Assembly (NCBI GenBank): GCA_029975275.1
Contig: JARKPN010000166.1
Location: forward strand, 40,509 to 104,508
DNA from: Geobacteraceae bacterium
Lineage (GTDB): Bacteria; Desulfobacterota; Desulfuromonadia; Geobacterales; Geobacteraceae
Direction: 5' to 3'
Length of the DNA: 64,000 nucleotides
Made by a program: the position numbers and the translations under genes. This document shows positions 34,604 through 51,395 of this stretch, in pieces. Below the pieces are notes generated by a model. It was not told where the DNA came from, did not search any database, and worked only from the letters and a program-made list of their open reading frames with translations. Positions within the stretch are counted from its first letter, which is position 1. Each line of letters starts with the position of its first letter.

Positions 34604-35560
34604 ATGACAAACGTCGGCAGCGGACAGTATAAGCATCATCAGGTCCTGGTGGTCGAGGACAGCGCACTCATGCGTAGGGTCCTTGATGGGCACCTTCAGG
34701 AGATGGGATACCGGACCGTCACCGTCGAGAACGGCCGCCAGGCTTTGGACAAACTCGTCACAGGGTACTACCCCATCGTCATTACCGATCTGGTCATGCC
34801 TGAAATGGATGGAAGGGAACTGTGCATGGCCGTAAGGGAAATGTCCTTGGGGGGGTATGTCTATCTCATCATGCTTACCTCCCGGGATTCCAGGGAGGAC
34901 ATGATCCGCGGCCTGGAGGCGGGGGCCGACGAATACCTGATCAAACCGGTAAACCGGGCAGAACTGATGGTGCGCCTGAAGACCGCCGAAAGGATACTCA
35001 CCCTCGAAAGCTCGTTGAAGAAAAGCTATGAGGAGATTAAGGCCCTGTCGGTCCGGGACCCGCTTACCAGGGTCTACAACCGGGGATACCTGGACGAAAG
35101 GCTTGTCCACGAGGTCAAGCGGGCCTTTCGTTTCGAGAGACCTATCTCCCTCATAATGTTCGATATTGACCACTTCAAGCTCATCAACGATACCTTCGGA
35201 CATACGGTCGGGGATCGTGTGCTTGTTGAGTGCGCGGATCTCTTGAAGCTCTCCATCCGTCAGGAGATCGACTGGATAGCCCGCTACGGTGGTGAGGAGT
35301 TCGTCATTGTCCTTCCCGAGACCCTCTCTCCTGGGGCGTTCGTGGCTGCGGAAAGGTTGCGGAAAAATCTTGCGACCAAGGTGATGGCGGCGGACGGCGC
35401 CGAAATACGGGTCACGGCAAGCTTCGGCGTGAGCAGCTTCACGCCGGCGAGCCAGAAGGAGGACCTCTCAATGGCCGCATCACTTATTGCCGGTGCGGAC
35501 CGTGCCCTTTACAGTGCCAAGAAAGAAGGGCGGAACAGGGTCGAGTGCGTGCAACTTTGA
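34604..35560 (+). CDS. Response regulator with GGDEF output (REC-diguanylate cyclase)
   Basis: The REC domain reads VLVVEDSALMRRV...VITDLVMPEMDG...KP. The GGDEF domain has an intact RYGGEEF active site. The start is taken at the MTNVGSG ATG. Confidence 0.88.
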   Translation: MTNVGSGQYKHHQVLVVEDSALMRRVLDGHLQEMGYRTVTVENGRQALDKLVTGYYPIVITDLVMPEMDGRELCMAVREMSLGGYVYLIMLTSRDSREDMIRGLEAGADEYLIKPVNRAELMVRLKTAERILTLESSLKKSYEEIKALSVRDPLTRVYNRGYLDERLVHEVKRAFRFERPISLIMFDIDHFKLINDTFGHTVGDRVLVECADLLKLSIRQEIDWIARYGGEEFVIVLPETLSPGAFVAAERLRKNLATKVMAADGAEIRVTASFGVSSFTPASQKEDLSMAASLIAGADRALYSAKKEGRNRVECVQL

Positions 35561-35594: not shown

Positions 35595-36005
35595 TCATCT
35601 GTTCACGCTGATCCTGCCGTCGGTGTCCACCAATGTCTCGAAATATACCTGCCGCTCTCCCTCGGTTACCAGTCGTGCCGTTATCTGGAACCGCAGGGTA
35701 AGAGAGTCGTCTTCTTCCGGGATGAACGTCACGTTTGTACCGGACAGTCTCGGCTCGTACCTCTCCATGGCTGACTTGAGGCTCGATTCTATCTCGTGCA
35801 CCGAATCGGGATAGCTCTGGAGAAAATCAAGAAAATCCGGAACCCCGTAATCGTCCGCAATGGGGACATTTCCCTGTCTGGTGTTCAGCATCTTCTGCAG
35901 ATGGTCGACAATCGAGTCGATGCAGCGTCGCATATCTTCGCTTCCCCGACGATGCGGTTCAGTTTCCCAGGAACGAAGCCGTTCCAGAAGTCGTTCTCCA
36001 ACCAT
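35595..36005 (-). CDS. tssE: T6SS baseplate subunit TssE (gp25-like)
   Basis: LLERL...SIVDHLQKMLNTRQGNVPIADDYGVPDF...RYEPRL is the GPW_gp25/TssE pattern. Confidence 0.85.
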   Translation of the reverse strand: MVGERLLERLRSWETEPHRRGSEDMRRCIDSIVDHLQKMLNTRQGNVPIADDYGVPDFLDFLQSYPDSVHEIESSLKSAMERYEPRLSGTNVTFIPEEDDSLTLRFQITARLVTEGERQVYFETLVDTDGRISVNR

Positions 36006-36066
36006 CCTCTTTTGCTCCTTTCCGCGCAGTTCACTCCCTCCCTAATGCAAGGGAAGGGTGGGTAGC

Positions 36067-36814
36067 TCAAATCGTCTTTTCCAGAACATCGGCCCTGTCG
36101 CCGGGAGCAGGATGGCTTGAGAACACGCTGCTGTCGTTGCCGTACATCTTTTCCAGTTTGCGCAGTGCGCTTACGGCGGCTTTGGGGTCGTACTTGTTGG
36201 TCTTGATGAATTTGAGGGCATACTTAATCGGCGTCCTTTTCGTTGGCCTGGGAGTATTGTGCGTGCACCAGTTGCTCGGCCAGTTCTCCCAAGGCTTCAT
36301 CTGACAGCTTGACCATGCTGCTGCCGCTTGCAACACCGGCCTTGCGGGCGGCAGATGTAACATAGGCGGTCTGAAATGCCTTCTTGCTGTGACCGAGGCT
36401 CACATGCCCGATTTCGTGGCCTATGACGTAACGCACCTCGTCATCGGTCATCTGGTCCATGAGCCCGGCGAAAACGCGGACGGTCCCGTCGGCCATGGCG
36501 AACGCATTGACATCCTTCACCAGATAGACCTTGATATCGGTTTTCACATTGCCGTCAATCTTCATCCCCTTCGTGAGCTTCGCAAGTCGTTTCGCGTAGG
36601 GACTGGAAGGGGGTGCAAGCTGATTGGACTGGTCGTAGGTCTGGCTCGCCTCCGAGGCGAGTTGCTTTACCTGTCCATCGGTCAGGGTTGCCGCAGAAGT
36701 GAGGTCTTTACCGGCTTCCAGCATGCCGCCGAGGTCGAAACCGGCATTGGCGGGGTGAGTGAGTGCTGCAGATATAAATACCGCTGTTGTGATCTTTCTG
36801 AGTTTGTTCAGCAA
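36067..36814 (-). pseudogene. Secreted M48-family zinc peptidase, split by a +1 frameshift at about 36223-36229
   Basis: ORF 36224-36880 carries a signal peptide (TTG start at 36814 with an AGGAGA RBS), HEIGHVSLGH and ...SQANEKDAD, then a stop. The next frame continues KYALKFIKTNKYDPKAAVSALRKLEK...SSHPAPGDRADVLE, which is the expected continuation of the E-x-x-AD third-ligand region and the M48 C-terminus. Confidence 0.8.
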
Positions 36815-36939
36815 AGTTCTTTCTCCTCTTTCGTGTAGGATAGGCAGGCCAGCGTAGTAAGTTTTGCATAAAGCTATCAAGGTTTTCTTCCTTGTTGTGC
36901 TTTGATGTTACTAACAGAACAACGCTTCACTATTGGAAA

Positions 36940-37230
36940 CTATTCTTGCACTCTTACAATTACCGCGGAAATCTTTTTGATTTCTATTACACTATCGAAA
37001 AATTCCCCATTGGAGAGTTCGCCTAATTGTACAAGCTCTTTGGTGACAGTACGCACTTTGCCGCTTAATTCTCCGCCACCCATCAAGCGCAGGGTAATTC
37101 GTTTCCCTTTATGAGCCTCCAGTACTTTCTGAACGCTGTCTCCGGCTTTGATCTCCAAAACGTCCGCAAAGGCTCCCTGAGTCAGACTCATGCAAACCAG
37201 AAACGTTGGAACAACAAATAGATATTTCAT
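36940..37230 (-). CDS. Hypothetical small secreted protein (96 aa) in the low-GC patch
   Basis: The signal peptide is MKYLFVVPTFLVCMSLTQGAFA. The mature ~74 aa looks like a small beta-rich domain. I recognised no family. Confidence 0.5.
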   Translation of the reverse strand: MKYLFVVPTFLVCMSLTQGAFADVLEIKAGDSVQKVLEAHKGKRITLRLMGGGELSGKVRTVTKELVQLGELSNGEFFDSVIEIKKISAVIVRVQE

Positions 37231-37375
37231 ATGTGTCTCCTATTGAATTGGATTATTTTGCACCTCAATTAGGCGCATTTGTGTCCTTATTTCTGATTTG
37301 GGTCTTGCAAAGTGCAGTTCGCGACCATCTCGACCTAAGGGAGAGATTCTGAGGTGTACCTACCATACTCGGACG

Positions 37376-37403
37376 TGGCCCTCCCCGGCAACGGGGAGGG
37401 CCA
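37376..37403 (-). terminator. GC-rich 11-bp hairpin immediately after hcp
   Basis: tggccctcccc-N6-ggggagggcca, 17 nt past the hcp stop. There is no U-tract, so it may act as an attenuator or mRNA-stabilising stem. Confidence 0.45.
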
Positions 37404-37419
37404 TAACCAACTCAGATGA

Positions 37420-37908
37420 TCAGCCTCTCGGCACAGTCCATGAATCCTCTGACTCAATACCGTTGGGCTCATACGTCCACTTAATTTTCTTGTAGGTGAA
37501 GGATACCTTTTCCATGTGTCCATAGGGATCGCTGCTGGACTCGAGGGTGATAGGCATGTAAGGCTCCATCCCGACCACGATGGCGTCCTCAAGAGTTGTG
37601 GTGAAATAGTGCTCTTCGGTTCCCTGCTTGGTGATCCGATAGTATTTAAGGTTGACGTCTTTCATGTGTTCGCCGGTGCAGAGTGCTTGGTAAAGCTTGG
37701 GTGAACTCTTGTCATACATCTTTGTAATCGTTAGAGGTCCGTGCAGGCGTTTGCCCGACCCAAGTCCGGTGTTCGGATCACGTGGGATGCTGATGGCATG
37801 GTCCAGTGCATAGACAAGGATGGTGTTTTCCCTGCCTTGCATTTCGCAAGACCCGTCGATCTTGCCTTGTTTTTCTCCGGTCAGTGTCAAATGTGCTGGC
37901 ATTGGCAT
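37420..37908 (-). CDS. hcp: T6SS tube protein Hcp (TssD)
   Basis: 162 aa. The Hcp1-family pattern is present (MPMPAHLTLTGEKQGKIDGSC..., HGPLTITKMYDKSSPKLYQAL, KIKWTYEPNGIE). A GAGGAGG RBS lies upstream. Confidence 0.92.
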   Translation of the reverse strand: MPMPAHLTLTGEKQGKIDGSCEMQGRENTILVYALDHAISIPRDPNTGLGSGKRLHGPLTITKMYDKSSPKLYQALCTGEHMKDVNLKYYRITKQGTEEHYFTTTLEDAIVVGMEPYMPITLESSSDPYGHMEKVSFTYKKIKWTYEPNGIESEDSWTVPRG

Positions 37909-38123
37909 AGTGTGCTTCCTCCTCGCTGTGGTTTAGGTGTCCTCTAAGAGGATCACCAAGTTGCTACCAAAATGCCCTCAACAGGTGTTCGTGGCCATCC
38001 CAACTGAGCCTGGAATCTGTCATTAGTCAATGGATAGGTCTTTAGGTTTGTTGTGTGTGCCATTTTCTTTGACGGCAGATTGGTATGCTTAACATGATTA
38101 CCTTAAGGTAAATAGAGCATTTA

Positions 38124-38570
38124 TTATTCGCAAACTATCGACTCAATTTGCAGAAAGGTCCCGGATTTTGTTAGTTTTAATGTTAGCCTGCAGCGTTTTG
38201 CGCCCTTAGGCAGCCGTTTTGTAAGGACCGCGTTTGTATTATGGTAAGTACAGGAAAGCCAGAACCCGTCTGGATTCTCACCGGGAAACAACCATGTTGA
38301 AACAGATTTTCCTTTTTTGTTAATTGCCTTGTCTGGCACAAGAGTAGCTAAACCTGAAGGGTGTCCGCTGCTGAACATAACATTGTCGACATAATGCTCT
38401 CTTGGCACAACATAACCTTCCCAATTCTCGGGGGACGTTACAACCTTCTCCGAAACGTTTATGCTCGGAGGGCATTGAATGTTTTCGGCATTGGCACTAA
38501 TAGGTAATGAGAAAATAACCGAAATTAATAACAATATGTATTTCGACGGAGGGTGGGTATTTGGTTTCAT
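38124..38570 (-). CDS. Periplasmic STY0301-like protein, putative cognate immunity protein
   Basis: The start is at MKPNTHPP, preceded by a GGAGA RBS. The signal peptide ends ISANA. The mature part (IQCPPSI...NWEGY...FSSGHPSGLATLVPD...WLSCTYHNTNAVLTKRLP...C) matches my recollection of the STY0301 family. It lies directly downstream of the effector-like gene. Confidence 0.6.
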   Translation of the reverse strand: MKPNTHPPSKYILLLISVIFSLPISANAENIQCPPSINVSEKVVTSPENWEGYVVPREHYVDNVMFSSGHPSGLATLVPDKAINKKGKSVSTWLFPGENPDGFWLSCTYHNTNAVLTKRLPKGAKRCRLTLKLTKSGTFLQIESIVCE

Positions 38571-38615
38571 TTTATGTCTCCATATCAGGTTTGATGCATA
38601 CAAGAATCCATCAAA

Positions 38616-39008
38616 TCATTCAATTACATAGAAACTATCCCCATCGTTGCTTCGCTTTGTTCCTTTAGGGCGATTGAAGTTTATCGTTCTAATCTGCACT
38701 TCACCCTGATTGTTCTATTGATCGAGCACCTTAATCCCTTGTTTGTCGTGTGAAAGATATATAGCCGCATGTCTCCCCTGAGCGTCGGTCGGGTAGCTTC
38801 CACTTCCGTCGAACGTAGCAATTGCTGTCCCGCGAGGAATTGCCCCATGGGAAGCGTCTTTAACCTTTATGCCCTTTCTCCACGCGAGTGTTGCAGGTGC
38901 GCCTGTAGCTTGTTGAATAAACTCAACGCACTCAGTATTTCCCTTTTTATTTACAAACTTCTTTTTCCCATATACGCTGCTTTCCGGGATACGTAATGTG
39001 TAAGCCAT
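38616..39008 (-). pseudogene. BPSL0067-like small putative T6SS effector (Cys/His hydrolase-like), interrupted by an in-frame TAG at 38715-38717
   Basis: The strong RBS reads gcaaggaggttctATG. The translation is MAYTLRIPESSVYGKKKFVNKKGNTECVEFIQQATGAPATLAWRKGIKV...GTAIATFDGSGSYPTDAQGRHAAIYLSHDKQGIKVLDQ, then TAG, then in frame NNQGEVQIRTINFNRPKGTKRSNDGDSFYVIE and TGA. There is no signal peptide. Confidence 0.7.
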
Positions 39009-39795
39009 AGAACCTCCTTGCTCATTATGCTACTATTTCAGCGATTTGTATTGGTCTTGTGACGGAGCCAAGCAACCATCCCTAAGGAGCTCAAATACTT
39101 CAGGTTGTATCTTAACAACGTATTTCTAAATATTGTCGATCGCCAATATTCTGTTGCTCTGACATACTTAGCTGAGACATGGTTATTTCTCCTTTGCTTT
39201 GATTGAAAACAATATTTGTTTGAACTTAGTTGTATCGATATTGCTTTTTATCCTAATAGCAAGTTTAACTGGGAGGTATCACTCGTTTCAGTTCCAATTA
39301 CGATAGGTGGGGCATTATTATATTTAAAGACAGTTACTGTGCTGCCAAGACTAACCCATATGACATTGGCGGGAATTGTGACCACAAATTGTTCTGATTT
39401 TACTTTAACGCCTCGTTTTTGTGATGTTTTTCCCATGACAGGGTGTCGGCTATCACAAAACATCCTCTTTTTTCACACAGTAGCAATTTCTGAACCTGTT
39501 GAACTTTTTCAACAAAAACCACGTCGTTTGCCATAAAAGCGAACAGCACAAGCACTGTAAGTAATGTTTTCACAGCTATCTATCCTCTAACCAATGACGA
39601 TATAAGTGTTAAAATATAAATATTTTATATATTAATTATAATTAAATTACATAGTTGCAAAAAAATCGTCTTACTACGAGGTGTTACGGGTATAACACTC
39701 GACTTGTCTGGTATGAACCACCACATCTCTTAAGCATACCTGAATAATTGAAATCTGAGTCGAAGCCACCTTAGACGATAGATGCGGATTTCGTA

Positions 39796-39813
39796 GGGGC
39801 AACTAATTGCCCC
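39796..39813 (-). terminator. Short hairpin just downstream of tssC
   Basis: ggggcaa-ctaa-ttgcccc forms a 7-bp stem 33 nt past the tssC stop. There is no U-tract. Confidence 0.3.
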
Positions 39814-39845
39814 CACGGTTGTCTCAGCTCGTAGGCAAAACAAGA

Positions 39846-41342
39846 TCACGCCGCATTGACCTCTTTATCCAACTTACCCACCAGCGACAGCGTAAAATAC
39901 GCTCCCATGTACTTGAAGTGCGGCCTGACCTTCAGCGACACCCGGTACCAGCCGGGTTCGCCGGGAACTTCCTCGACCGAGATCTCCGCCTGGCGAAGGG
40001 GCCTGCGGCTTCTCACGCCCGGCATGGGGTTATCCATGTCAGAGACGTACTGGCGGATCCAGTTGTTCAGTTCCAGTTCCAGGTCGCTCCGTTCCTTCCA
40101 CGTGCCGATGTTTTCCCGCTGGATGACCTTGAGATAATGGGCCAGGCGGCTGATGATGAACATGTACGGGAGCTGCAGTCCGAGTTTGTAGTTGAGCTCG
40201 GCCTCTTTCCCCTCCTTGCTGATGCCGAAGTATTTCGGCTTCTGGACCGAGTTGGCCGAGAAGAAGGCCGCGTTGTCGCTCCCCTTGCGCATGGTGAGGG
40301 CAATAAAGCCTTCCTCGGCCAGTTCGAATTCCCTTCGCTCGGAAATGAGAACTTCGGTGGGAATCTTGGTCTGAATGGCGCCCATGGCCTCGTACTGGTG
40401 CAGCGGCAGGTCCTCCACCGCTCCGCCTCCCTGGGGTCCGATGATGTTGGCGCACCAGCGATAATTGGCGAAGCTGTCGGCAATCCGAGTGGCAAAGGCA
40501 AAGGCCGCATTGCCCCAGTTGTAATGCCTGTGGCTCGCGGACACGTCTTCCTGATAGTTGAAGCTCTTGACCGGCAGGGTATCGAGGCCGTACGGCAGGC
40601 GGAGCAGGAAGCGGGGGAGGGTGAGGCCTACATAGCGGGCGTCCTCGGTCTCACGGAATGATTGCCACTTGATATACTGTGGGCCTTCCATTATGGATTT
40701 GATGTCCTTGAGAGTCGGAAGGGTATTGAAATCCTCGATGCCGAAGAACTCCGGGGCTACCGCGGCTACAAAAGGCGTATGGGACATGGCAGCCACTGCG
40801 GCGGTGTATTGAAGCAGCCTCATGTCCTGCGGTCCGGCGTCGAACTCGTAGTTTCCTATCATGCAGCCATAGGGTTTGCCCCCGAACTGGCCGTACTCGT
40901 TGGTATATACGATCTTGTAGAGCCCTGACTTGACGATCTCGGTGGCGTCCTCGAAGTCCTCCAGCAATTCGTCCTTGGTGACGTGGAGTATCTCCAGCTT
41001 GGTATTCTCCCTGAAGTCGGTCCTGTCCATGAGGAATTCCAGCGATCGCCAGGCCGATTCAATCTGTTGGAACTCAAGGTTATGGAGTATTTCATCCACC
41101 TGAAGGCTCAGCTTGCGGTCTATCTCGGCTATCATACCGTCGAGACTGGCCTTGGACACCTTTGCCGCTTCACGTCCCGGTTCCAGAAGCTGGGAGATCA
41201 GGGCTTCCACCCCCTTGCGGGTGATGGAATAGGCTTCGTCCGCCGGCCTGAGCCTGGTGGCCTGGACAATCTCCTCCAGGAGCGATTCCTGCAGTACCTC
41301 CTGCTTCTCGACGATTTGAGGATTTTCCTGGTTCGTGTTCAT
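39846..41342 (-). CDS. tssC: T6SS contractile sheath large subunit TssC
   Basis: 498 aa with VipB/TssC family-wide motifs (PYGCMIGNYEF, RLPYG, GPQGGGAVEDLP, YRVSLKVRPHFKY). Confidence 0.95.
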   Translation of the reverse strand: MNTNQENPQIVEKQEVLQESLLEEIVQATRLRPADEAYSITRKGVEALISQLLEPGREAAKVSKASLDGMIAEIDRKLSLQVDEILHNLEFQQIESAWRSLEFLMDRTDFRENTKLEILHVTKDELLEDFEDATEIVKSGLYKIVYTNEYGQFGGKPYGCMIGNYEFDAGPQDMRLLQYTAAVAAMSHTPFVAAVAPEFFGIEDFNTLPTLKDIKSIMEGPQYIKWQSFRETEDARYVGLTLPRFLLRLPYGLDTLPVKSFNYQEDVSASHRHYNWGNAAFAFATRIADSFANYRWCANIIGPQGGGAVEDLPLHQYEAMGAIQTKIPTEVLISERREFELAEEGFIALTMRKGSDNAAFFSANSVQKPKYFGISKEGKEAELNYKLGLQLPYMFIISRLAHYLKVIQRENIGTWKERSDLELELNNWIRQYVSDMDNPMPGVRSRRPLRQAEISVEEVPGEPGWYRVSLKVRPHFKYMGAYFTLSLVGKLDKEVNAA

Positions 41343-41351
41343 GTCTCCTCC

Positions 41352-41837
41352 TTATCCTTCCAGTCCGATTTCAGCCAGAAGTCTCTGGCGGGATGCGTCG
41401 TCCCTGATGAGCGCCTGGATCTTTTTCCTGAACTCGGGGACATTGGAGAGCGGTCCCTTGAGGGCGCGCAATGCCTCCCGCAGCTCGAGAAGACGCTTCA
41501 ACTCCGGCACCTGCTCCACAATCGCCTCGGGGCCGAAATCCTTCATCTTCTCGACCCGAAGACTGACGTTCAATTCGTGGTCCTTGTCCTCGGCGAGCCG
41601 GTTGGGCACCGAGAAATTCAGGGTGATATTCCGGGCCTTGAGGACTTCATTGAAGTTGTCCTTGTCAACGCTCACCGGCTCGCGCTTTTCAACCGGCAGG
41701 TCACTGTCGCTGCCGGTGAAATCCCCCAGGACCAGCATCTTGAGGGGGAGTTCGATCTCTTCTTTCGCGTCGCCGAGAGATGGGCGGTAGACGATGTTTA
41801 CGCGCTCCTTTGGAGCAATGGACGATTCTTTTGCCAT
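41352..41837 (-). CDS. tssB: T6SS contractile sheath small subunit TssB
   Basis: 161 aa. The VipA/TssB pattern is PKERVNIVYRP...ELPLKMLVLGDFTG. Confidence 0.93.
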   Translation of the reverse strand: MAKESSIAPKERVNIVYRPSLGDAKEEIELPLKMLVLGDFTGSDSDLPVEKREPVSVDKDNFNEVLKARNITLNFSVPNRLAEDKDHELNVSLRVEKMKDFGPEAIVEQVPELKRLLELREALRALKGPLSNVPEFRKKIQALIRDDASRQRLLAEIGLEG

Positions 41838-41909
41838 GATGGCCTCCTTGTCGGTACTTCGTATATGATTATCAGCTGAACTATCCGGTACGGCCTCTTG
41901 AGGCTTTGC

Positions 41910-44306: not shown

Positions 44307-47300
44307 CGTGCTATGCTCCTTGGCGCCTGACCGGACATCGTCGCGGCCTGCTTCTTTATTGCACCGCTACCCATGAATTGATAGTTGACGGTAATATGTT
44401 TAATTCCCATCCGTTCGAGGGCCGTCCTTTCACCCGGGAAATCGCGTGCCGAAAAGGTCCTTCTCCCACCCCGGAAATCCCTCAGAAAGTCAGGGAAGCC
44501 GTCCGATCCCATGTAGTGCCTGGTAAGCACCGTATCCCCCACCTCGATCTGGAAGAGCACATCTCCGCAGGTATCCGGAGACCAGGTGAAGGTCCTGCCT
44601 GCGGGATAGTTGTTGTTGACGAGAGTCTGACTAGCGTTGCCGCATTGAAGTTCCAGCCGCGTAGCGTGGGGTTTCAGTCTCGCCTCAGTATTAGCGTCGG
44701 TGGGAAGTCCCTTGATTCCTACGTTGAAGTTCTGGGGTTTTCCCATTGCGATTACCGTGGCCTGCGCCTTGGCCCCTTGTCCGAGAAAACTGAAGAGCGC
44801 GTGTTCAAGGGGTAGGGCGCCTCCCAGCGCCTCCTTGGCTCCATAACCGTACATGTTCCCCTTCAGGAAGGGCATCGCAGGGCCCTTGGCGAAACGCCAC
44901 GCCAGACCGTCGGGTCCCACCAGCATCGGCATTGCCTGTTGTGGGGTCATTCCCATGGTCGGCGCTAGCACTTGCTCTTCCCACATGGATTGAAGCTGGC
45001 AGGCGCTTTCACGTCTCAGAAAGATCCATAGGAATTCCACGGGACCGTTTATGAGTTGGGAGAAGACGGGGTCGGTCTCGCCCCCGGCCAAACCCGTCTT
45101 CAGTCGGGCACCGGACGAGAATGCAGAGAACAATGGTGATTTCCCGTTTACCGGGTCTTCAGCGAAGGTCTGCGAGGCCAGTTGAAAGGAAAGGTTCCTG
45201 GAAGCCGTTGCTTGCGCGATGGACGATAGGGTACCCCGGTATTCCGCATACGACTTTCCGGCCGCTGATTGGGCCTCGAGTATTTTTGCGTCCGCCTCGC
45301 GTCCGATATTTCTGCGCAGAGCGCTGATAAACCTCCCCCCTCCTGACGTGACCTTGACAACGGCGCCCGTCTTACGTACAGCCCCTTGCATCTTGACTGC
45401 CTGGTACTGGTAGACCTGTTGCAGCCATGGCGGCAGGGAGCCTTCTGTAACCACCGGTTGAAGCTCCAGGGCAATTCTATTCAGCAGGGCGAAATAGGGC
45501 CCCTGTTCGGTTGACATGCGGCCCGCAACCTGACGCCATTCGGCAACCCCGCGGAGGCGACTCGCCCCCCGTGGAAAACCCGCAGCAAAGCCCTGCCAGG
45601 CCGAAACCGCTGCCCCGCGGTACCACTCCAGTAACGCCGCCTTGGCAGAGGAAATTGAGGCGGGTTCCGGGTGGGCGTTATCAAGCTCTGCCATCAGTGA
45701 ATCGATGGATTCCTTTCCCTTCCTGGTAAAAGAGGGAAGGACAGACTTCTCTCCCTCTGCCTGAAGGCTGCCCCCCCAGAATTCGGCGAGCGTTACCGAA
45801 GAAAGGCCGCTCTGGGTGTCTGTCCAGGCCGTCAGCCACTGCATGCTCGGGATCTTCGCGGCGATTGTCTGTCTGAGCCATGACTGGAGCACGGTCGTCT
45901 CCTTGTTCAGGTCACCGGGTTCATCACGCCAGATCAGATAGTAGAGATAAAGTGAGCCAAAGGCTTTTCTGGTCTGCGGAGTTCCGGCCGAACCGTCGCC
46001 AAGGAGGGAGATATACGATGGCTGAGGCATCGACTTGAGGACCTCCAGGTCCTTCTCTTCCTGTCGTGCTTTGAGAATGTTGATCCTTCTCACAAGATGC
46101 ACCGCAAACTGACCGTAGAGTTCATCGGGAGTGGAAGCGGAAATGGTGAGCAACGTACCGGACAGTTGTTTGTCATAGGGCGTAAGCAGGCCCTCCCGGA
46201 ACATGCGGCAGTATCTTTTCTTCAGAAAGCCTTCCAGCTTCAGACTTTCATTGAGCCAGAACCTCGGAAACCACCAATTGCTGTTCTTCTCTTCTACGTT
46301 AAGTATTTCCTTACGGAAGTTGTCCATGGTGACGAGATCCGCTTGCATGCCCCCGCGCAGTGACTGGGAAGCGGTGAATTCCCTTGAGACATCGCGGATC
46401 GTTTTTACGTTTTTCACGAAGGAGAAACTCAACAGACCGCAGAGCGCAATACCGAGGATGACCCACGCGGTGAGGCCAAGGTTGCCCGTCAACATGCGCC
46501 ATTCCAAGGCTTTTCGGGTCGGAGCAAGAAGGTTGCGGTCCCCGGGCAGCACCTTGGCGAAGAAATCATGGAGGAAAAGGCCCTTGTTGGTGCCGGGAAG
46601 TGCCTCTACCTCGCCGGTTCTGCCGAGAGTCCTGCTGAAGTGGGAGTGAGGATTTCCTTCCTGTCGCCCGCTGCTGAAGAAGATACCCCGCAGCAGTGGG
46701 GTTTCCTGATATGGGTTTTTGCGGAAGGCACCGCTCATGAAAGAGGCCAGGCCCTGTTTCAGAGTCTCGAATTCCTCGGGAAACAGGAGCAGCGCCGGAT
46801 CGGCCCCTTTGTCGGCGGGCTGATGCAGCAGCTGGAGACGAAGGTTTCTCAGGCGTTCGTCGATGGTGGCGACCGCATGTTCGACAAAGCTCTCCACATC
46901 TCTGGAAAGGTCCTGATTGACAATCCCCATGGGTTGGTCAAGGCTCTTGTCCGGCAGGTTCTCGCAGAAACGGTTAACCCCCTGGATCAGGTCGCACTTG
47001 GTAGCCAGGACATACACCGGAAAACGTATGCCAAGGGCGCGCATGAGTTCGTCAATACGCTGCCGTATGGTGCGGCCATACTCTTCCAGATTTTCTTTCC
47101 CGGCCTCCAGGAGCCTGTCGGCGGCCACGGTCACTATCAGGCCGTTGAGCGGTTCCATGCGCCGATATTTCAGCAGCAGCGACAGAAACCTTTGCCATTC
47201 GTCCTTGTCCCTTCCCTCGTTTATCGGTATGGCGTAACGGCCGGCAGTATCGAGTACCACCGCCTGCTCAAAAAACCACCATTCGCACTGCCTGGTCCCC

Positions 47301-47767
47301 GACACCCCGGTAACCCGTCCCCTGTCACTGAACGGAGAAGCAAGCCTGGCGCTGTTCAGTGACGTGGTCTTACCGGATCCGCTTTCACCGATTACCATGT
47401 ACCAGGGGAGAACGTAGAGTGGGTTACCGAGTTTCTTCAGATGCGATTTCCTAACCGTTTCTATCGCGGCTCTCCACTTTTCCTGCAGATCCTTCATCTC
47501 GCTTTTTTCTTTTTCCGAGACGGTACGCAGACGGGCAATATCCTGATCGCTTATGTCCCTGACGAAGTTCTGTTCCCTGCGTCGCAACCAGAGCTTTCTT
47601 GCGAATATGAAACCGAAAGCCAACCCTGTCAGCAGCAGAATCAGAAAGAAACCGACCCACCACGGCCAGTTGATGACTACAACAAAACCAAAGATCAACA
47701 GAACGAGGAGGATACACGCTGCGATAAGGAGTGTTATCTTGAGAAATTTTTTTATTCTATCTTTCAT
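44291..47767 (-). CDS. tssM: T6SS membrane complex protein TssM (IcmF)
   Basis: 1158 aa with N-terminal TM helices and a Walker A motif (GESGSGKTTSL). The IcmF-related and C-terminal domains are present. It overlaps tagF by 16 nt and follows tssL by 1 nt. Confidence 0.93.
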   Translation of the reverse strand: MKDRIKKFLKITLLIAACILLVLLIFGFVVVINWPWWVGFFLILLLTGLAFGFIFARKLWLRRREQNFVRDISDQDIARLRTVSEKEKSEMKDLQEKWRAAIETVRKSHLKKLGNPLYVLPWYMVIGESGSGKTTSLNSARLASPFSDRGRVTGVSGTRQCEWWFFEQAVVLDTAGRYAIPINEGRDKDEWQRFLSLLLKYRRMEPLNGLIVTVAADRLLEAGKENLEEYGRTIRQRIDELMRALGIRFPVYVLATKCDLIQGVNRFCENLPDKSLDQPMGIVNQDLSRDVESFVEHAVATIDERLRNLRLQLLHQPADKGADPALLLFPEEFETLKQGLASFMSGAFRKNPYQETPLLRGIFFSSGRQEGNPHSHFSRTLGRTGEVEALPGTNKGLFLHDFFAKVLPGDRNLLAPTRKALEWRMLTGNLGLTAWVILGIALCGLLSFSFVKNVKTIRDVSREFTASQSLRGGMQADLVTMDNFRKEILNVEEKNSNWWFPRFWLNESLKLEGFLKKRYCRMFREGLLTPYDKQLSGTLLTISASTPDELYGQFAVHLVRRINILKARQEEKDLEVLKSMPQPSYISLLGDGSAGTPQTRKAFGSLYLYYLIWRDEPGDLNKETTVLQSWLRQTIAAKIPSMQWLTAWTDTQSGLSSVTLAEFWGGSLQAEGEKSVLPSFTRKGKESIDSLMAELDNAHPEPASISSAKAALLEWYRGAAVSAWQGFAAGFPRGASRLRGVAEWRQVAGRMSTEQGPYFALLNRIALELQPVVTEGSLPPWLQQVYQYQAVKMQGAVRKTGAVVKVTSGGGRFISALRRNIGREADAKILEAQSAAGKSYAEYRGTLSSIAQATASRNLSFQLASQTFAEDPVNGKSPLFSAFSSGARLKTGLAGGETDPVFSQLINGPVEFLWIFLRRESACQLQSMWEEQVLAPTMGMTPQQAMPMLVGPDGLAWRFAKGPAMPFLKGNMYGYGAKEALGGALPLEHALFSFLGQGAKAQATVIAMGKPQNFNVGIKGLPTDANTEARLKPHATRLELQCGNASQTLVNNNYPAGRTFTWSPDTCGDVLFQIEVGDTVLTRHYMGSDGFPDFLRDFRGGRRTFSARDFPGERTALERMGIKHITVNYQFMGSGAIKKQAATMSGQAPRSIARCWAQ

Positions 47768-47768
47768 C

Positions 47769-48449
47769 TCAGTTCGATACCGTCCTTATGAAATGTTCCC
47801 CAATGCCGCTCAGGGTGAATCTGTAGATCCCGTACAGAAGACAGAAAAAAAAGACAGGTCCGACAAGGCAAATCGCGAACACGAGTTTTGAACCGAACCT
47901 GATCCTTTGCCGTTCCCTTTCCGCGGGACCTGTCGGAAAGGCTTCCGGAAAGAGGTCGTTGCGTTCAAGGGAAGGGAGTCCGACCGAACTGCCCAGCAGC
48001 AGCTTCAGGTTTGAGGTCTTGATCTGTTCAAGCTGGTATTCGTCTCCCGGGTGGCAGTAGCGCCCGGTGAATCCGAGAGCGAGGCAAAGGTAAAAGACCT
48101 CCCGCACCTCTCTTTGGTGGAGTCCTATGGAGCTCAGACGATCAAAGAACTCTTCTCCGGCATCGGTGGTGTTGTAAAACTGCCTCTGAAGCTGGTCCTT
48201 CAGCCATATGCTACGCTCTCTCCAGGGTGCATTGAGCAGGGCTTCGTCGATCCACGCGCATACGGCGAAGCGGGCCTGTTCAAAATCCTCCCTCGGGAAG
48301 CCGCCTCGTGCCACTCCCCCCTCGCTTTCCGCGAGGAGCCTGCTTATGTCTGCCTTTACCTGCTCACAGGTCGGATGCTTGCTCTCGACGGTTTGAAGAA
48401 AAAAAGACACATATGCAAAAATGTTGATAAAACAGTCACTTAAATGCAT
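47769..48449 (-). CDS. tssL: T6SS membrane complex protein TssL (DotU family, no OmpA extension)
   Basis: ARFAVCAWIDE, FFDRL, VREVFYLCLALGFTGRY and a C-terminal TM helix are present. A GGAGG RBS lies upstream. Confidence 0.88.
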   Translation of the reverse strand: MHLSDCFINIFAYVSFFLQTVESKHPTCEQVKADISRLLAESEGGVARGGFPREDFEQARFAVCAWIDEALLNAPWRERSIWLKDQLQRQFYNTTDAGEEFFDRLSSIGLHQREVREVFYLCLALGFTGRYCHPGDEYQLEQIKTSNLKLLLGSSVGLPSLERNDLFPEAFPTGPAERERQRIRFGSKLVFAICLVGPVFFFCLLYGIYRFTLSGIGEHFIRTVSN

Positions 48450-48816
48450 TGAACCTCCATTTCCGCATCACCACTAAAAAATCATTCAATGTGAGTGATT
48501 GCAAATAATACAAATCAAATTATGTAAAATCAAGTAAATTAAGATCAAGGGTTGGAAATATTTTAATTTTCACAACCGAGCATTTCTTAAGCTTGCTGGA
48601 TAGTCTGTGAACTAACAATGGAGCACATAGCAGTGTTGTCGTAAAACTTGTAGCGAGGATATGGGGAGGGCGTCGCCTCGACGTAGTTTCCTTCCAGGGC
48701 TTAGATCCAGGCATTGACCAAATAAGACACGGCGCCCAGGCCGGGGCAGGTTATGTCCAGCAATTGAAAATAGAAAGAAACGCCGCAGAACCTTAATAAG
48801 GCTTTGCGGCGTAAAA

Positions 48817-49183
48817 TTACGCGGGTAAGTTGCTGGAGTATATAAATTTTGAAGGAAAGGTAAAGTAATCCTGAAGAAGTTGATAGCCGGAAAACACATG
48901 AGAAAATCCGGGGAGAAGCGCCTCATCCTGACCGAAACCGACCGGCATCAGGCAACCGGGAGGGAGGATCACGGCGGCTCTACCTTTGACCGGCGTGATT
49001 GTCATACGTGTGACATCATTACGGAGGAGAGTATAGAGTTCGGTGTCTAATGCATAATCGCCGGACATTGGGAGAGGGGAAGATCGTTCAGGACAAGTGA
49101 AAGCCTGAGTTCCGGAGCGCCTCTCATCGACCGGCCGAAACAAACATCCCTCAGTTCAAGCGGATGGAGTTCCACGTCGTCAT
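48817..49183 (-). pseudogene. tssF: tssF relic (about 120 codons in two frames; both ends of the gene missing)
   Basis: One frame reads FYDDVELHPLELRDV...GAPELRLSLVLNDLPLSQ. A second frame (ORF 48817-49143) reads GDYALDTELYTLLRND...LMPVGFGQDEALLPGFSHVFSGYQLLQDYFTFPSKFIY. The latter matches the TssF/ImpG signature GF..DEALLP....F.GYRLLQEYFAFPEKF. Confidence 0.7.
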
Positions 49184-49188
49184 AAAAC

Positions 49189-50577
49189 TTATCTACCCAC
49201 CACCATCAGTTCCACGTCGGTTCCCTCGGGAGCGTTGTTCCAGTGAAGCGCAAGCGAACGGTTCCTTTCCACCGAATGCCACTGTTCATCGTGATGGTTA
49301 ATGGTGAAATAGAACGTATTGGCCCGGCGGGGAAGCTCCTGGGGCGGGACCTGAAGGTACTCCAGCGCGATGCCCGGAAGCGCCTGGGTGACCAGCATGT
49401 GCAGCTGCTCCCCTGAGCTCAGTTTGGCGATGTCCTCTATGGTCGGCACCACGGCCTTTGGATCCGCGTCGGTCTTTATTGCCAGATAGTAGCGGTTGCG
49501 TCCCTCGAAGACGGCTGGCTTAAGCTCAGCGGCGAAGAAAGTTCCGTCATGCGCCAGGCGAATCACGTATTCCGGACCGGCTGTAATTTCGTCGAGGAGA
49601 TGCGAGATCATGTCCTGAAGTGCCGAAAAGCACCCCCACAAGTCACGGTGGTCGTAATCCGGAATGCTGGTTTGGCCGTCCTTCAGTTCCCCCAAGACGC
49701 TAACTTCTTCGGAAAATGTAGTGAGCTCGCCCACAAGCTGTTTTAGCGCCCCATAGAGAAACCAGGGGTGGACGTGTTCCGTCTTCGTGAAATGTACAAG
49801 AAGCGGGACATAGCGATTGATGGACCTGAGCGCCAGGAAATAGACCATGTCCCTTGAGCCGAATTCCGCCGTCTGGACTCCTCGCTTGCTCTTATGCTCT
49901 TCAAGCTGGTATGCCCTTGCGGTAACCTGTTCCCTTATCTCTTCAGCCAGCTTCCGAAGGGGCACCGAAGCGTTGCAGGCAATTGAAGGGGGGATGTAGT
50001 CTTCTGAAAGCCTGGTTTCCGTACCGAACTTTTCCAACCGGGCCAGAGGTATGAGCTGGTAGTCTCCCAGCTTGTGCATTTCCGTTTCCCAGAAGATCTT
50101 CAGCACGAAGTAAAGCCTTCTCACCTGTCCTCCCGGCCCCCCGGCGTGAAGGTCGCCGAACTCATCGGAATCGTTCGTTGCCACGAAACGCGTGTGTACC
50201 GATTCAAAACCTTCCAACGCCTGAAGAACGGTGACGTTTTCCCCCTCATCCGTCCAGTTCTTGAGGCCGAGATATACGGTTAGCGGCTTTCCGTCCTTCA
50301 CCCAGGCTTCGTCGAAGACGCGGGCCTCCACCAGGGCATTGCCCGGAAGAGACACATGGGTCCCGTCGGGAAACAGGAAATCTCCGTTCTTGAGATTGAA
50401 TGAACCCGTAGGCAGTGCCCCCTCAAGAATCTCCATCTCTCCCACCCCCCAGAAGTCCTGCATCAGGTAACGCTGATAGGGGGAGAACAGTCCCTGAACC
50501 GTTCGATCCAGGAGCTGGAAATGCTGGGGTTGAAGATAGATGCCCTGGTGCCAGAAAAGCGGTCGCTGAATGTTCAT
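49189..50577 (-). CDS. tssK: T6SS baseplate subunit TssK
   Basis: MNIQRPLFWHQGIYLQPQHFQLLDR is the canonical TssK N-terminus. The protein is 462 aa. Confidence 0.93.
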   Translation of the reverse strand: MNIQRPLFWHQGIYLQPQHFQLLDRTVQGLFSPYQRYLMQDFWGVGEMEILEGALPTGSFNLKNGDFLFPDGTHVSLPGNALVEARVFDEAWVKDGKPLTVYLGLKNWTDEGENVTVLQALEGFESVHTRFVATNDSDEFGDLHAGGPGGQVRRLYFVLKIFWETEMHKLGDYQLIPLARLEKFGTETRLSEDYIPPSIACNASVPLRKLAEEIREQVTARAYQLEEHKSKRGVQTAEFGSRDMVYFLALRSINRYVPLLVHFTKTEHVHPWFLYGALKQLVGELTTFSEEVSVLGELKDGQTSIPDYDHRDLWGCFSALQDMISHLLDEITAGPEYVIRLAHDGTFFAAELKPAVFEGRNRYYLAIKTDADPKAVVPTIEDIAKLSSGEQLHMLVTQALPGIALEYLQVPPQELPRRANTFYFTINHHDEQWHSVERNRSLALHWNNAPEGTDVELMVVGR

Positions 50578-51098
50578 TATCTTTCCTTTATCTCCTGAAT
50601 GCTCTCAGGTCCCATGTGAAGATTGATGTTCAGTTTTTGGGGGTTGTTTAGAAGGGAGACCGGGATCTCGTAAGTGCGTACGCAGTTCACCTTATGCAGA
50701 GCATAATAACCCGCGACCAATCCCACGTATTTGGCGCCCTCGGTCCGATCCAGTGCCCCCTTAATCTCCTGTTTCGGTTGGACCACCAGTCTCTTTGCAT
50801 AGGTAACGCCGCCGTCGAAGCGGTTGCACTCCAGGAGCTTCGACAGTCCTCCGTTTTCATCGCTCAACTGTTTGAAACCGTTCAGGTCCTTCAGGTGATA
50901 GACGCAGACGATGAGTGAGTGGGGTTTTCCCTGGTAGAGGTTAAGAAGTGGGTCTCCCTGGAAGCGGAGGGTTATGGCGTCCTTTTCGTGCGTCCATTCC
51001 GGCGGAGAGACGATGGCGGACTTTCCAAAACATGAGCAAAGAAGAAATGGAAGAAGAACGCAGGGAATAGCGAAAGACAGTCTGGTCATTTTGTTCAC
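50577..51098 (-). CDS. tssJ: T6SS outer-membrane lipoprotein TssJ
   Basis: The lipobox is LPFLLCSC. The TssJ-like beta-sandwich pattern is LRFQGDPLLN...HSLIVCVYHLKD...YVGLVAGYY. Its stop overlaps the tssK ATG (TAATG). Confidence 0.85.
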   Translation of the reverse strand: MNKMTRLSFAIPCVLLPFLLCSCFGKSAIVSPPEWTHEKDAITLRFQGDPLLNLYQGKPHSLIVCVYHLKDLNGFKQLSDENGGLSKLLECNRFDGGVTYAKRLVVQPKQEIKGALDRTEGAKYVGLVAGYYALHKVNCVRTYEIPVSLLNNPQKLNINLHMGPESIQEIKER

Positions 51099-51395
51099 CC
51101 CATGGCTGTTTTTTTAGGAAACCGTGTGAATCGGTGCTGGAGCGTGCGGAATATGTAACGGCGGGCCATAATAGTTTAATGAAATAAATAAAGTAGTATA
51201 ATAAAAAATTAATAAATCGATATCATTTATCCAAAGAAGTGTCAATTAATTTTATTAAAAATTAATGTGTATGCTACAAAAATGTCCCCCGGGAATAATC
51301 GTCAAAACCGTCACTTATCCTTTGACAGCAGAGGGACAAGTTGATAACTTACCTGAGTTCGATGATGTTTATTTGAATTTGCGATAGGTGTGTTC

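What the first reader, a model, noticed from the sequence alone, without database searches (positions are those of the whole stretch)
35595..51098. T6SS locus with an incomplete core set and multiple lesions: a split, remodelled or decaying system
Intact genes are tssJ, tssK, tssL, tssM, tagF-tssA, tssB, tssC, hcp and tssE. I could not find tssG, clpV/tssH, vgrG/tssI or any PAAR gene in any frame of the 64-kb window, and tssF is only a relic. Three further genes in the locus are interrupted: the effector by a TAG, M48 by a frameshift, and a small secreted ORF by a frameshift. The long genes, such as the 1158-aa tssM, remain open. tssE is stranded at the distal end without tssF/tssG downstream. 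Either the missing baseplate/spike/ATPase genes are supplied from another locus, or this is an early-stage degenerating or repurposed apparatus.
Basis: partly seen in the sequence, partly recalled or inferred. Interest (0 to 1): 0.75.

Follow-up and report, generated by a model that had tools for sequence, protein, structure and literature searches.

The report
Main half of a split T6SS
This is the main gene cluster of a type VI secretion system whose "missing" baseplate and spike genes lie intact in a second locus of the same bacterium, as is usual in Geobacter-type bacteria, so it is split and locally scarred rather than dying.

Summary
On the minus strand the window carries intact tssJ, tssK, tssL, tssM, tagF-tssA, tssB, tssC, hcp and tssE. 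It also carries a roughly 124-codon TssF relic between tssK and tssL and three broken cargo genes. No tssG, clpV, vgrG or PAAR gene is present in the 64 kb.

The incompleteness is only local. The same organism carries a second locus beside rsmG-mnmG-dnaA with intact vgrG, a Tox-PAAR-like gene, DUF2169, lipase and Tli4 genes, tssF (577 aa) and tssG (331 aa). This rests on one shared MAG, at least nine shared samples, and strain alleles of the two loci that co-vary.

Geobacter metallireducens and G. sulfurreducens also keep their 13 core genes in two loci. Close relatives of this cluster are split in several ways.

Among strains the nine core genes here have pN/pS 0.20, the same as neighbouring housekeeping genes. 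The relic and the cargo pseudogenes accumulate SNPs and indels faster.

Best reading: a two-locus T6SS that lost a redundant tssK-adjacent tssF/tssG copy and some cargo.

Open points are that ClpV was not found, that a tssK frameshift allele exists in some populations, and that the trans-encoded tssF/tssG show pN/pS near 1. Nothing here is unusual for this family.

The parts
50577..51098 (-). tssJ (outer-membrane lipoprotein; gene callers use the start at 51089, giving 170 aa)
   Evidence: PF12790 at 1.9e-15. Lipobox-like LLCSC N-terminus read from the translation.
49189..50577 (-). tssK, 462 aa, intact in the window. A +1 nt allele near 50277 splits it into 110 + 342 aa in some populations.
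   Evidence: PF05936 at 4.7e-110. Frameshift allele.
48817..49188 (-). TssF relic covering residues about 124-247 of about 577. It has an internal frameshift and stop, and a 28-bp indel that is polymorphic between strains.
   Evidence: PF05947 positions 191-268 of 608; tblastn; alignment; 28-bp indel; SNP density 6/372 against 1/1911 in tssJ+tssK, p=1e-4.
48450..48816 (-). AT-rich spacer with two sigma-70-like promoter matches 55-100 nt upstream of tssL. It has no counterpart in relatives, where tssK and tssL lie 9 bp apart.
   Evidence: consensus matches only; relatives' spacing. A promoter role is inferred.
47769..48449 (-). tssL (DotU), 226 aa
   Evidence: PF09850 at 4.5e-42. The exact protein occurs in 41 contigs.
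44291..47767 (-). tssM, 1158 aa
   Evidence: PF14331 at 1.8e-72. Collinear with relatives' TssM over residues 1-1158 at 57-67% identity. All three alleles seen are 1158 aa.
41910..44306 (-). tagF-tssA fusion, 798 aa
   Evidence: TagF_N + ImpA_N + VasJ; TIGR03362 at 376 bits. The same fusion occurs in the closest relatives, while deeper relatives have two separate genes.
41352..41837 (-). tssB
   Evidence: PF05591 at 5.1e-56.
39846..41342 (-). tssC
   Evidence: PF05943 + PF18945; 83-89% identical to Geobacteraceae TssC.
39164..39573 (-). Remnant of a secreted cargo protein (probably an immunity protein). It is frameshifted, with strain-polymorphic indels at about 39430 and 39620. Relatives encode 216-248 aa.
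39072..39152 (-). 27-codon remnant of another cargo ORF (70% identical to the C-terminus of a 184-aa protein of L025)
38613..39008 (-). Tae2-like (BPSL0067 family) amidase effector pseudogene with TGG changed to TAG at codon 98. One strain lineage has a second stop (C to T at 38780).
   Evidence: NF033857 covers profile 3-115 of 115 at 100.6 bits once the W is restored. PDB 6WIN 'Type 6 secretion amidase effector 2' at E 2.2e-10. Strain comparison.
38124..38603 (-). STY0301-family protein with a signal peptide (called as 148 aa from 38570). Presumed immunity partner of the dead Tae2; intact.
   Evidence: NF042415 at 5e-30. The exact protein occurs in 45 contigs. The immunity role is inferred from its position.
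37420..37908 (-). hcp, 162 aa
   Evidence: PF05638 at 1.4e-38. The exact protein occurs in 48 contigs and is 98% identical to L139 Hcp.
36940..37230 (-). 96-aa secreted protein, intact, of unknown function. It recurs next to hcp or M48 in relatives.
   Evidence: no family match.
36067..36880 (-). M48 metallopeptidase with a +1 nt frameshift directly after the HEIGH...EKDAD motifs. The C-terminal 52 codons (36067-36225) are out of frame yet still 85% identical to relatives.
   Evidence: PF01435. A 196-aa gene call in every strain.
35595..36005 (-). tssE (gp25-like), 136 aa, the last gene of the locus. Its stop codon lies 35 bp from the end of the convergent GGDEF gene.
   Evidence: PF04965 at 1.4e-15. 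Five alleles seen, all 136 aa.

Best explanation
The window holds the main cluster of a two-locus type VI secretion system of a Geobacteraceae-like bacterium. The taxon is inferred from the nearest relatives and was not tested directly.

The main cluster supplies the membrane complex (TssJ, TssL, TssM), TssK, TssE, the TagF-TssA cap and regulator, the sheath (TssB, TssC) and the Hcp tube.

The second locus lies beside rsmG-mnmG-mnmE-yidC-dnaA. It supplies the rest of the baseplate wedge (TssF, TssG) and the spike (VgrG, a Tox-PAAR-like protein). It also carries a DUF2169 adaptor and lipase, amidase and muramidase effectors with Tli4-type immunity genes.

The host lineage once carried tssF and tssG directly downstream of tssK. 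That copy became dispensable and was deleted, leaving about 124 codons that are still decaying.

Some cargo of the main cluster has also died: the Tae2 amidase, an M48 peptidase and a secreted protein. The Tae2-linked immunity gene is kept.

Shown here: the gene content of both loci, their linkage to one organism, purifying selection on the main-cluster genes, and decay of the relic and cargo. Inferred: that the products of the two loci assemble into one working machine.
For: Second locus in the same organism:
- The TssF P0250 found is encoded on contig JAXGZM010000014.1 of MAG GCA_040771705.1. Contig 7 of the same MAG carries this locus at 99.95% identity.
- P0250 is also in JGI 3300022666, SRR7110663 and SRR30200691, which all hold the window locus too.
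- The strain-variant TssF allele P0314 occurs in SRR29050537, SRR29050538, SRR29050539, SRR28527307 and GCA_046128295.1. These are exactly the samples that carry the variant main-locus strain (L008, L009, L012, L011, L003).
- Contig counts are similar: 25-42 for the second locus against 41-48 for the main locus.

Identity of the second-locus genes: TIGR03359 TssF 566 bits, TIGR03347 TssG 273 bits, TIGR03361 VgrG 630 bits, plus Tox-PAAR-like and DUF2169.

Precedent for split systems:
- G. metallireducens and G. sulfurreducens have their 13 core genes in two loci, and these genes are expressed (PMC10580878, Table 1).
- The L017 genome has tssG-tssF, vgrG and a PAAR-like gene 395 kb from its main cluster on the same contig.
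- In four Geobacter MAGs the cluster is bounded by housekeeping genes, directly after tssE in L022 and L052 and upstream of tssL in all four (L022, L023, L025, L052; the L023 and L025 contigs end before tssE).

Selection:
- 24 synonymous against 16 nonsynonymous and no nonsense SNPs in the nine core genes among strains that all share the relic. pN/pS is 0.20 against 0.19 for flanking housekeeping genes, p=7e-7 against neutrality.
- The relic and the cargo pseudogenes carry significantly more SNPs, plus indels.

Origin of the relic:
- L125 has the same FdhD-LysR flank followed by tssJ-tssK-tssF (574 aa, intact)-tssG.
- The closest TssK relative, at 81% identity, is followed by tssF and tssG-tssF.
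Against: - ClpV/TssH was not found. It is absent from the window, from the 8 kb upstream of vgrG and from the region downstream of tssG. The one database search for it was saturated by closer relatives.
- A +1 frameshift allele of tssK occurs in contigs otherwise identical to the window over 21 kb, from two JGI samples (3300022666 and 3300022177); the truncated protein pieces are also recorded from Logan contigs.
- Between the two strain lineages the trans-encoded tssF+tssG differ by 16 nonsynonymous and 4 synonymous changes, pN/pS about 1.35. That looks relaxed or adaptive, though only 20 changes are involved.
- This TssF is about equally distant (50-57%) from near and far relatives of the main cluster, so it may not be the original partner.
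- No expression or secretion data exist for this organism.
Confidence: 0.75

Rival explanations
1. The system is already non-functional and at an early stage of decay. On this view the intact long ORFs only reflect how recently the essential parts were lost.
For: - The TssF relic and three broken cargo genes.
- A tssK frameshift allele in some populations.
- ClpV not found.
- pN/pS of about 1 for the trans-encoded tssF/tssG.
Against: - The relic, with identical truncation points, is shared by all strains, so the loss predates their divergence. Yet the core genes since then show pN/pS 0.20, equal to housekeeping genes.
- No truncated alleles of TssL, TssM, TagF-TssA, TssB, TssC or TssE appear across 20-48 contigs each.
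- Intact tssF, tssG, vgrG and a PAAR-like gene exist in the same organism.
- TssF orthologues at 70-84% identity all keep the 577-aa length.
Confidence: 0.15
2. The second-locus tssF/tssG/vgrG serve a different, complete T6SS elsewhere in the genome. The window cluster would then be an orphan remnant with no wedge or spike of its own.
For: - This TssF is about equidistant from close and distant relatives of the main cluster.
- TssG is unfused, whereas the closest main-cluster relatives use a TssG-TssF fusion.
- Many Logan contigs break inside tssC, which may hint at a second similar tssC in those samples.
Against: - No other core genes lie in the about 8 kb upstream of vgrG, in the roughly 9 kb between vgrG and tssF, or in the about 9 kb downstream of tssG.
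- Purifying selection on the window's core genes needs a function.
- Two-locus single systems are the documented state in Geobacter.
- The whole genome could not be searched.
Confidence: 0.07
3. The partial apparatus has been repurposed for a role that needs no baseplate wedge or spike, for example a sheath-and-tube or membrane-complex function.
For: Only indirect. In G. metallireducens, deleting hcp alters extracellular electron transfer (PMC10580878), so T6SS parts do affect physiology beyond killing.
Against: No known T6SS-derived function dispenses with TssF/TssG/VgrG (own knowledge). These genes are present in the organism anyway.
Confidence: 0.03

Closest known systems
Two-locus T6SS of Geobacter metallireducens (Gmet_0273-0291 plus Gmet_3310-3315) and G. 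sulfurreducens (GSU3165-3182 plus GSU0428-0433); PMC10580878
   Same: The core genes are divided between two distant loci. One locus carries vgrG together with a PAAR-like gene, a PGAP1 phospholipase effector and a DUF2169 chaperone. The nearest sequence relatives of this cluster are Geobacteraceae.
   Different: The partition differs. In Geobacter, tssJ-K-E-F-G-H form one locus and tssL-M-A-B-C-hcp-vgrG the other. Here tssJ, tssK and tssE stay with tssL-M-A-B-C-hcp, while tssF and tssG sit at the end of the vgrG island. tssH was not found, and a TssF relic remains beside tssK.
Single-cluster deltaproteobacterial T6SS-i (tssJ-K-L-M-tagF-tssA-B-C-hcp-E-F-G-clpV-vgrG), as in loci L041, L043, L054 and L060-L063
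   Same: The gene order tssJ-K-L-M-(tagF)tssA-B-C-hcp-E is the same, and the proteins are 45-80% identical.
   Different: Those clusters continue with tssF, tssG, clpV and vgrG, and their tagF and tssA are separate genes. Here the cluster stops at tssE and tagF-tssA is fused.
Closest main-cluster relatives (L139, L015, L019, L024 and others), which have TssF plus a TssG-TssF fusion
   Same: TssC is 83-89% identical and Hcp up to 98%. They share the TagF-TssA fusion, the cargo set Tae2 / STY0301 / 96-aa protein / M48, and cargo placed between tssC and tssE.
   Different: They keep tssF after tssE and encode a roughly 930-aa TssG-TssF fusion. This organism has unfused tssF and tssG in another locus.
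Tae2 peptidoglycan amidase effectors (PDB 6WIN; NCBIfam BPSL0067 family)
   Same: The full-length family match is restored by replacing the stop with W. A secreted partner gene lies adjacent.
   Different: A nonsense codon removes the last quarter of the protein in every strain, so the effector is dead while the neighbouring gene is kept.

Membership tests
T6SS subtype i (13 core components) | Membrane complex TssJ, TssL, TssM | tested here: met
   PF12790, PF09850 and PF14331. TssM is collinear with relatives over 1158 aa. TIGR03348 scores 340 bits, below its 388-bit cut-off, and matches only the N-terminal half; relatives show the same, so this is a clade feature.
T6SS subtype i (13 core components) | Sheath TssB/TssC and tube Hcp | tested here: met
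   PF05591, PF05943+PF18945 and PF05638.
T6SS subtype i (13 core components) | TssA | tested here: met
   TIGR03362 at 376 bits against a cut-off of 230. It is fused to an N-terminal TagF domain.
T6SS subtype i (13 core components) | Baseplate TssE and TssK | tested here: met
   PF04965 and PF05936. tssK is intact in the window but frameshifted in some populations.
T6SS subtype i (13 core components) | Baseplate wedge TssF and TssG | tested here: met
   Not in the window, where only a relic remains. Both are intact in the organism's second locus: TIGR03359 at 566 bits and TIGR03347 at 273 bits. Linkage to the same organism.
T6SS subtype i (13 core components) | Spike VgrG (TssI) and a PAAR-type tip | tested here: met
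   VgrG of 704 aa, TIGR03361 at 630 bits. The tip candidate is a 223-aa Tox-PAAR-like protein (PF13665, precomputed hit). It had no NCBIfam match, and no classical PAAR_motif protein was seen.
T6SS subtype i (13 core components) | Sheath-recycling ATPase ClpV/TssH | tested here: inconclusive
   Absent from the window and from about 30 kb around the second locus. The database search listed only proteins at least 69% identical to a relative's ClpV, and none had this organism's sample signature. The whole genome could not be searched. In relatives clpV is often unlinked, judged by matching contig lengths for L019 and L024; that was not checked by look-up.
T6SS subtype i (13 core components) | Activity: Hcp secretion and contact-dependent killing | not testable with these tools
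   Needs culture experiments. The only proxy is purifying selection on the core genes, pN/pS 0.20.
Decaying (pseudogenised) secretion-system locus | Relaxed selection and disruptions in the structural genes themselves | tested here: not met
   pN/pS is 0.20, equal to housekeeping genes, with no nonsense SNPs. There are no truncated alleles of six core genes across 20-48 contigs. Exceptions are one tssK frameshift allele and pN/pS of about 1.35 for the trans-encoded tssF/tssG on 20 changes.
Tae2 / BPSL0067 amidase effector | Full-length family match with an uninterrupted ORF | tested here: not met
   The family match spans the whole profile only when the TAG is replaced by W. The ORF stops at codon 98 in all strains. 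It is therefore a pseudogene of this family.

The most novel reading that the evidence does not exclude
The machine may be a natural chimera. The main cluster's closest relatives all build the wedge from TssF plus a TssG-TssF fusion. This organism deleted its tssK-adjacent wedge genes and may now rely on an unfused TssF/TssG pair from a different T6SS sub-lineage, carried at the end of a vgrG-effector island, possibly with no dedicated ClpV. The excess of amino-acid changes in these two genes between strains (16 nonsynonymous against 4 synonymous) could then be adaptation to non-cognate TssK and TssE partners rather than decay.
Probability: 0.2. Interest if true: 0.5.

Novelty: new member of a known kind. 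Interest (0 to 1): 0.25.

Why it matters
It mainly serves as a caution. A T6SS cluster that looks incomplete within a 64-kb window need not be defective. In Geobacter-type bacteria the core genes are routinely spread over two or more loci, and they are partitioned differently in different lineages.

The locus also gives a small, clean example of how such partitions change. A redundant copy of the wedge genes was lost beside tssK, and cargo genes die while the immunity gene is retained.

For people working on Geobacter-type communities, for example on direct interspecies electron transfer, it adds one more widespread organism that probably carries an active T6SS with lipase, amidase and muramidase effectors.

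Tried and rejected
1. Source genome in the GTDB representatives. The TssC scan of genome contigs returned no hit better than 88% identity, so the source is not among the species representatives. That used the only scan, so TssF, ClpV and VgrG could not be searched genome by genome.

2. Search with a relative's TssG-TssF fusion. It found no protein of this organism, because its TssG is not fused. It did reveal the second locus of the L017 genome. P0061, chosen for its 20 contigs, came from JGI samples in which the window locus was not seen, so it was set aside as probably another organism.

3. Look-up of the window's TagF-TssA, meant to identify the source assembly. It returned only short Logan contigs.

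4. Literature search for the assembly and run accessions: nothing.

5. An intact close relative of the relic was sought. The best identity among about 180 TssF proteins is 52%, including the tssK-adjacent TssF of L125 (35%) and L112 (41%) and the organism's own TssF (43%). The relic is therefore too diverged to assign to a donor. It is not a recent copy of the functional gene.

6. ClpV. The search was saturated. Candidate P0396 belongs to another organism with a canonical single cluster.

7. A sigma-54 promoter consensus is absent from the window.

8. Sequencing error as the cause of the lesions was rejected. The same TAG, the same M48 insertion and the same relic boundaries recur in independent assemblies from NCBI, JGI and Logan.

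Full report
**What is in the window.** All the genes lie on the minus strand between a convergent GGDEF response-regulator gene (34559-35560) and a divergent LysR gene (51390-52304). In transcription order the locus reads as follows:
- tssJ (50577-51098)
- tssK (49189-50577)
- a TssF fragment (48817-49188)
- a 367-bp AT-rich spacer
- tssL (47769-48449)
- tssM (44291-47767)
- a tagF-tssA fusion (41910-44306)
- tssB (41352-41837)
- tssC (39846-41342)
- a low-GC cargo stretch of about 42% GC
- hcp (37420-37908)
- a 96-aa secreted protein (36940-37230)
- an M48 peptidase (36067-36880)
- tssE (35595-36005)

The TssF fragment matches Pfam PF05947 only at profile positions 191-268 of 608. It aligns to residues about 124-247 of some 60 relatives' TssF proteins at 34-54% identity. 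tblastn of relatives' TssG-TssF, ClpV, VgrG, DUF6484 and PAAR-like proteins found nothing else in the 64 kb.

**The lesions are real and fixed.** The locus occurs in many independent assemblies at 99.4-100% identity. These are MAG GCA_040771705.1, GCA_046128295.1, four JGI metagenomes and more than 20 Logan runs.
- All of them carry the relic with the same boundaries. One strain lineage keeps 28 bp that the window has lost, and it differs at six further relic positions.
- The small ORF at 38715-39008 is the front of a Tae2-type amidase. With the TAG replaced by W it matches NCBIfam BPSL0067 over the whole profile and PDB 6WIN, 'Type 6 secretion amidase effector 2', at E 2.2e-10.
- The TGG-to-TAG change is in every strain, and one lineage has a second stop. 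The downstream STY0301-family secreted protein is intact.
- The M48 gene has a +1 nt insertion directly after its HEIGH and EKDAD motifs. Relatives have one ORF of 243-257 aa.
- A signal-peptide ORF at 39400-39573 is the broken front of a protein that is 216-248 aa in relatives, with indel polymorphism between strains.

**What relatives look like.** The nearest TssC proteins in species-representative genomes are Geobacteraceae and Desulfuromonadales MAGs at 83-88% identity.
- Deeper relatives have the canonical single cluster tssJ-K-L-M-tagF-tssA-B-C-hcp-E-F-G-clpV-vgrG.
- The close relatives share the TagF-TssA fusion. They carry cargo between tssC and tssE and follow tssE with tssF and a roughly 930-aa TssG-TssF fusion. 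Most have no clpV or vgrG nearby.
- In several the cluster is truncated. In L022 and L052 it stops at tssE next to housekeeping genes (the L023 and L025 contigs end before tssE), and all four (L022, L023, L025, L052) lack tssJ and tssK upstream. L030, L031 and L033 lack tssK between tssJ and tssL.
- In the L017 genome the main cluster has tssE-tssF-clpV. A second locus 395 kb away on the same contig has tssG-tssF, vgrG, DUF6484 and a Tox-PAAR-like gene.
- In the model species G. metallireducens and G. sulfurreducens the 13 core genes are listed in two distant gene blocks and are expressed (PMC10580878, Table 1).

Split T6SS gene sets are thus the norm in this family.

**The missing genes of this organism.** A search with the TssF that follows the closest TssK relative (L112) returned P0250, a 577-aa TssF seen in 25 contigs from NCBI, JGI and Logan. 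It is encoded on contig JAXGZM010000014.1 of the same MAG that carries the window locus. It is also in JGI 3300022666, SRR7110663 and SRR30200691, all of which hold the window locus as well.

The second locus reads, in order:
- muramidase, amidase and small ORFs
- vgrG (704 aa)
- ORFs of 396 aa and 162 aa
- PGAP1-like lipase
- Tli4_C
- Tox-PAAR-like protein (223 aa)
- Tli4_C
- PGAP1/DUF676 lipase (620 aa)
- DUF2169
- tssF (577 aa)
- tssG (331 aa)
- then rsmG, mnmG, mnmE, yidC, rnpA and rpmH, followed by dnaA and dnaN

TssF, TssG and VgrG pass the NCBIfam equivalog or subfamily cut-offs by wide margins.

The linkage does not rest on binning alone. The strain-variant TssF allele P0314 occurs in SRR29050537, SRR29050538, SRR29050539, SRR28527307 and GCA_046128295.1. 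These are exactly the samples that carry the variant strain of the window locus. With this locus the organism has 12 of the 13 core components plus a PAAR-like protein.

**Is the main cluster still under selection?** The relic's truncation points are shared by all strains, so the loss of that TssF predates their divergence.
- Among those strains the nine core genes carry 24 synonymous, 16 nonsynonymous and no nonsense SNPs. pN/pS is 0.20, p=7e-7 against neutrality.
- Nine flanking housekeeping genes give 37 synonymous against 21 nonsynonymous, pN/pS 0.19.
- SNP density is 6/372 in the relic against 1/1911 in tssJ+tssK (p=1e-4). It is 13/1242 in the cargo pseudogenes against 31/7371 in tssC-tssM (p=0.006).
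- All alleles of TssL, TssM, TagF-TssA, TssB, TssC and TssE recorded in the protein collection are full length.

This is the pattern of maintained genes beside decaying ones. It is not the pattern of a dying locus.

**Where the relic came from.**
- L125 is a contig from a related organism, 78-82% identical in DNA across the shared genes. It has the same FdhD-LysR flank followed by tssJ, tssK, an intact 574-aa tssF and the start of tssG.
- The closest TssK in JGI metagenomes (81%, L112) is likewise followed by tssF and tssG-tssF, and it is preceded by fragments of another tssF/tssG copy.
- The closest relative of the cargo-hcp-tssE part (L139; Hcp 98%, TssC 89%) keeps tssF after tssE.

Wedge genes have evidently been duplicated and moved around tssK and tssE in this clade. 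The window's lineage had a tssK-adjacent copy and lost it. The relic is no more than 52% identical to any TssF examined, including the organism's own at 43%, so it is old and is not a recent duplicate.

**Wrinkles.**
- ClpV was not found, and the whole genome could not be searched.
- Contigs from two JGI samples (3300022666 and 3300022177), otherwise identical to the window over 21 kb, carry a +1 insertion in tssK (ACCGT to ACCGGT, not in a long homopolymer). It splits the gene into 110 and 342 aa, and the truncated pieces are also recorded from Logan contigs. So loss-of-function variants do occur in this species.
- Between the two strain lineages tssF+tssG differ by 16 nonsynonymous and 4 synonymous changes (pN/pS about 1.35). 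The neighbouring mnmG gives 5 against 14. The sample is small, but the value is clearly above that of the main cluster.
- The functional TssF is about equally distant (50-57%) from near and far relatives of the main cluster, so it may derive from another sub-lineage.

**Verdict.** The 'supplied from another locus' alternative is right for TssF, TssG, VgrG and the PAAR-like protein. 'Remodelled' is right. 'Decaying' applies to cargo and to a redundant gene copy, not to the apparatus. This is a new member of a known kind, the multi-locus T6SS of Geobacteraceae, and is of low general interest.

Noticed in passing
L015:16680-19469, and proteins P0002 and P0057 (relatives, not the window): Close relatives encode a roughly 930-aa TssG-TssF fusion next to a separate TssF. 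Some metagenomic proteins of about 1450-1545 aa are TssF-TssG-TssF in one chain, which would hard-wire the TssF2:TssG1 stoichiometry of the wedge. A quick full-text search showed no paper clearly about such natural fusions.
   Followed up: partly
window 50277 (tssK): A +1 nt allele (ACCGT to ACCGGT on the coding strand) splits TssK into 110 + 342 aa. It occurs in JGI 3300022666 and 3300022177, and the truncated pieces are also recorded from Logan contigs. The two JGI contigs are otherwise identical to the window over 21 kb.
   Followed up: partly
L126:10001-12693 against L141 (second locus of the same species): Between the two strain lineages tssF shows 6 nonsynonymous and 2 synonymous changes, and tssG shows 10 and 2 (pN/pS about 1.0 and 1.65). 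The adjacent mnmG shows 5 and 14. This could be relaxed or adaptive evolution of the trans-encoded wedge genes, but the numbers are small.
   Followed up: partly
L112:7551-8555: Upstream of tssK in the closest TssK relative lies a 276-aa ORF that combines a PAAR motif with a TssF C-terminal fragment, followed by about 50 codons of a tssG start. This is debris from a second tssF/tssG copy beside the intact one.
   Followed up: partly
window 36067-37230, and relatives L139, L052, L022, L031, L019, L034, L038, L017: A signal-peptide M48 metallopeptidase recurs as cargo in this T6SS clade, often beside a conserved 96-aa secreted protein, placed between hcp and tssE or after clpV. Its role in the system is unknown.
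   Followed up: no
L139:6348-6731: The Tae2-like gene of the closest relative is also broken, by a frameshift after codon 60, while its STY0301-family neighbour is intact. The effector therefore appears to have been inactivated independently in two lineages.
   Followed up: partly
L103-L111 (Logan contigs of the same species): Many independent short-read assemblies break inside tssC at about codons 350-415. This may reflect a near-identical tssC segment elsewhere in those samples or in the genome.
   Followed up: no
window 9542-10228 (minus strand): A second M48-like peptidase lies far outside the T6SS locus, 31-32% identical to the M48 that follows clpV in L017 and L020.
   Followed up: no
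L022:15257-17070, L052:18843-21489, and L094/L096:6043-9657: The same housekeeping block (acyltransferase, 4HBT thioesterase, B12-radical SAM) borders the tssE end of the truncated main cluster in some Geobacter MAGs. In others it borders the start of the tssG-tssF/vgrG locus. This suggests a shared rearrangement hot spot.
   Followed up: no
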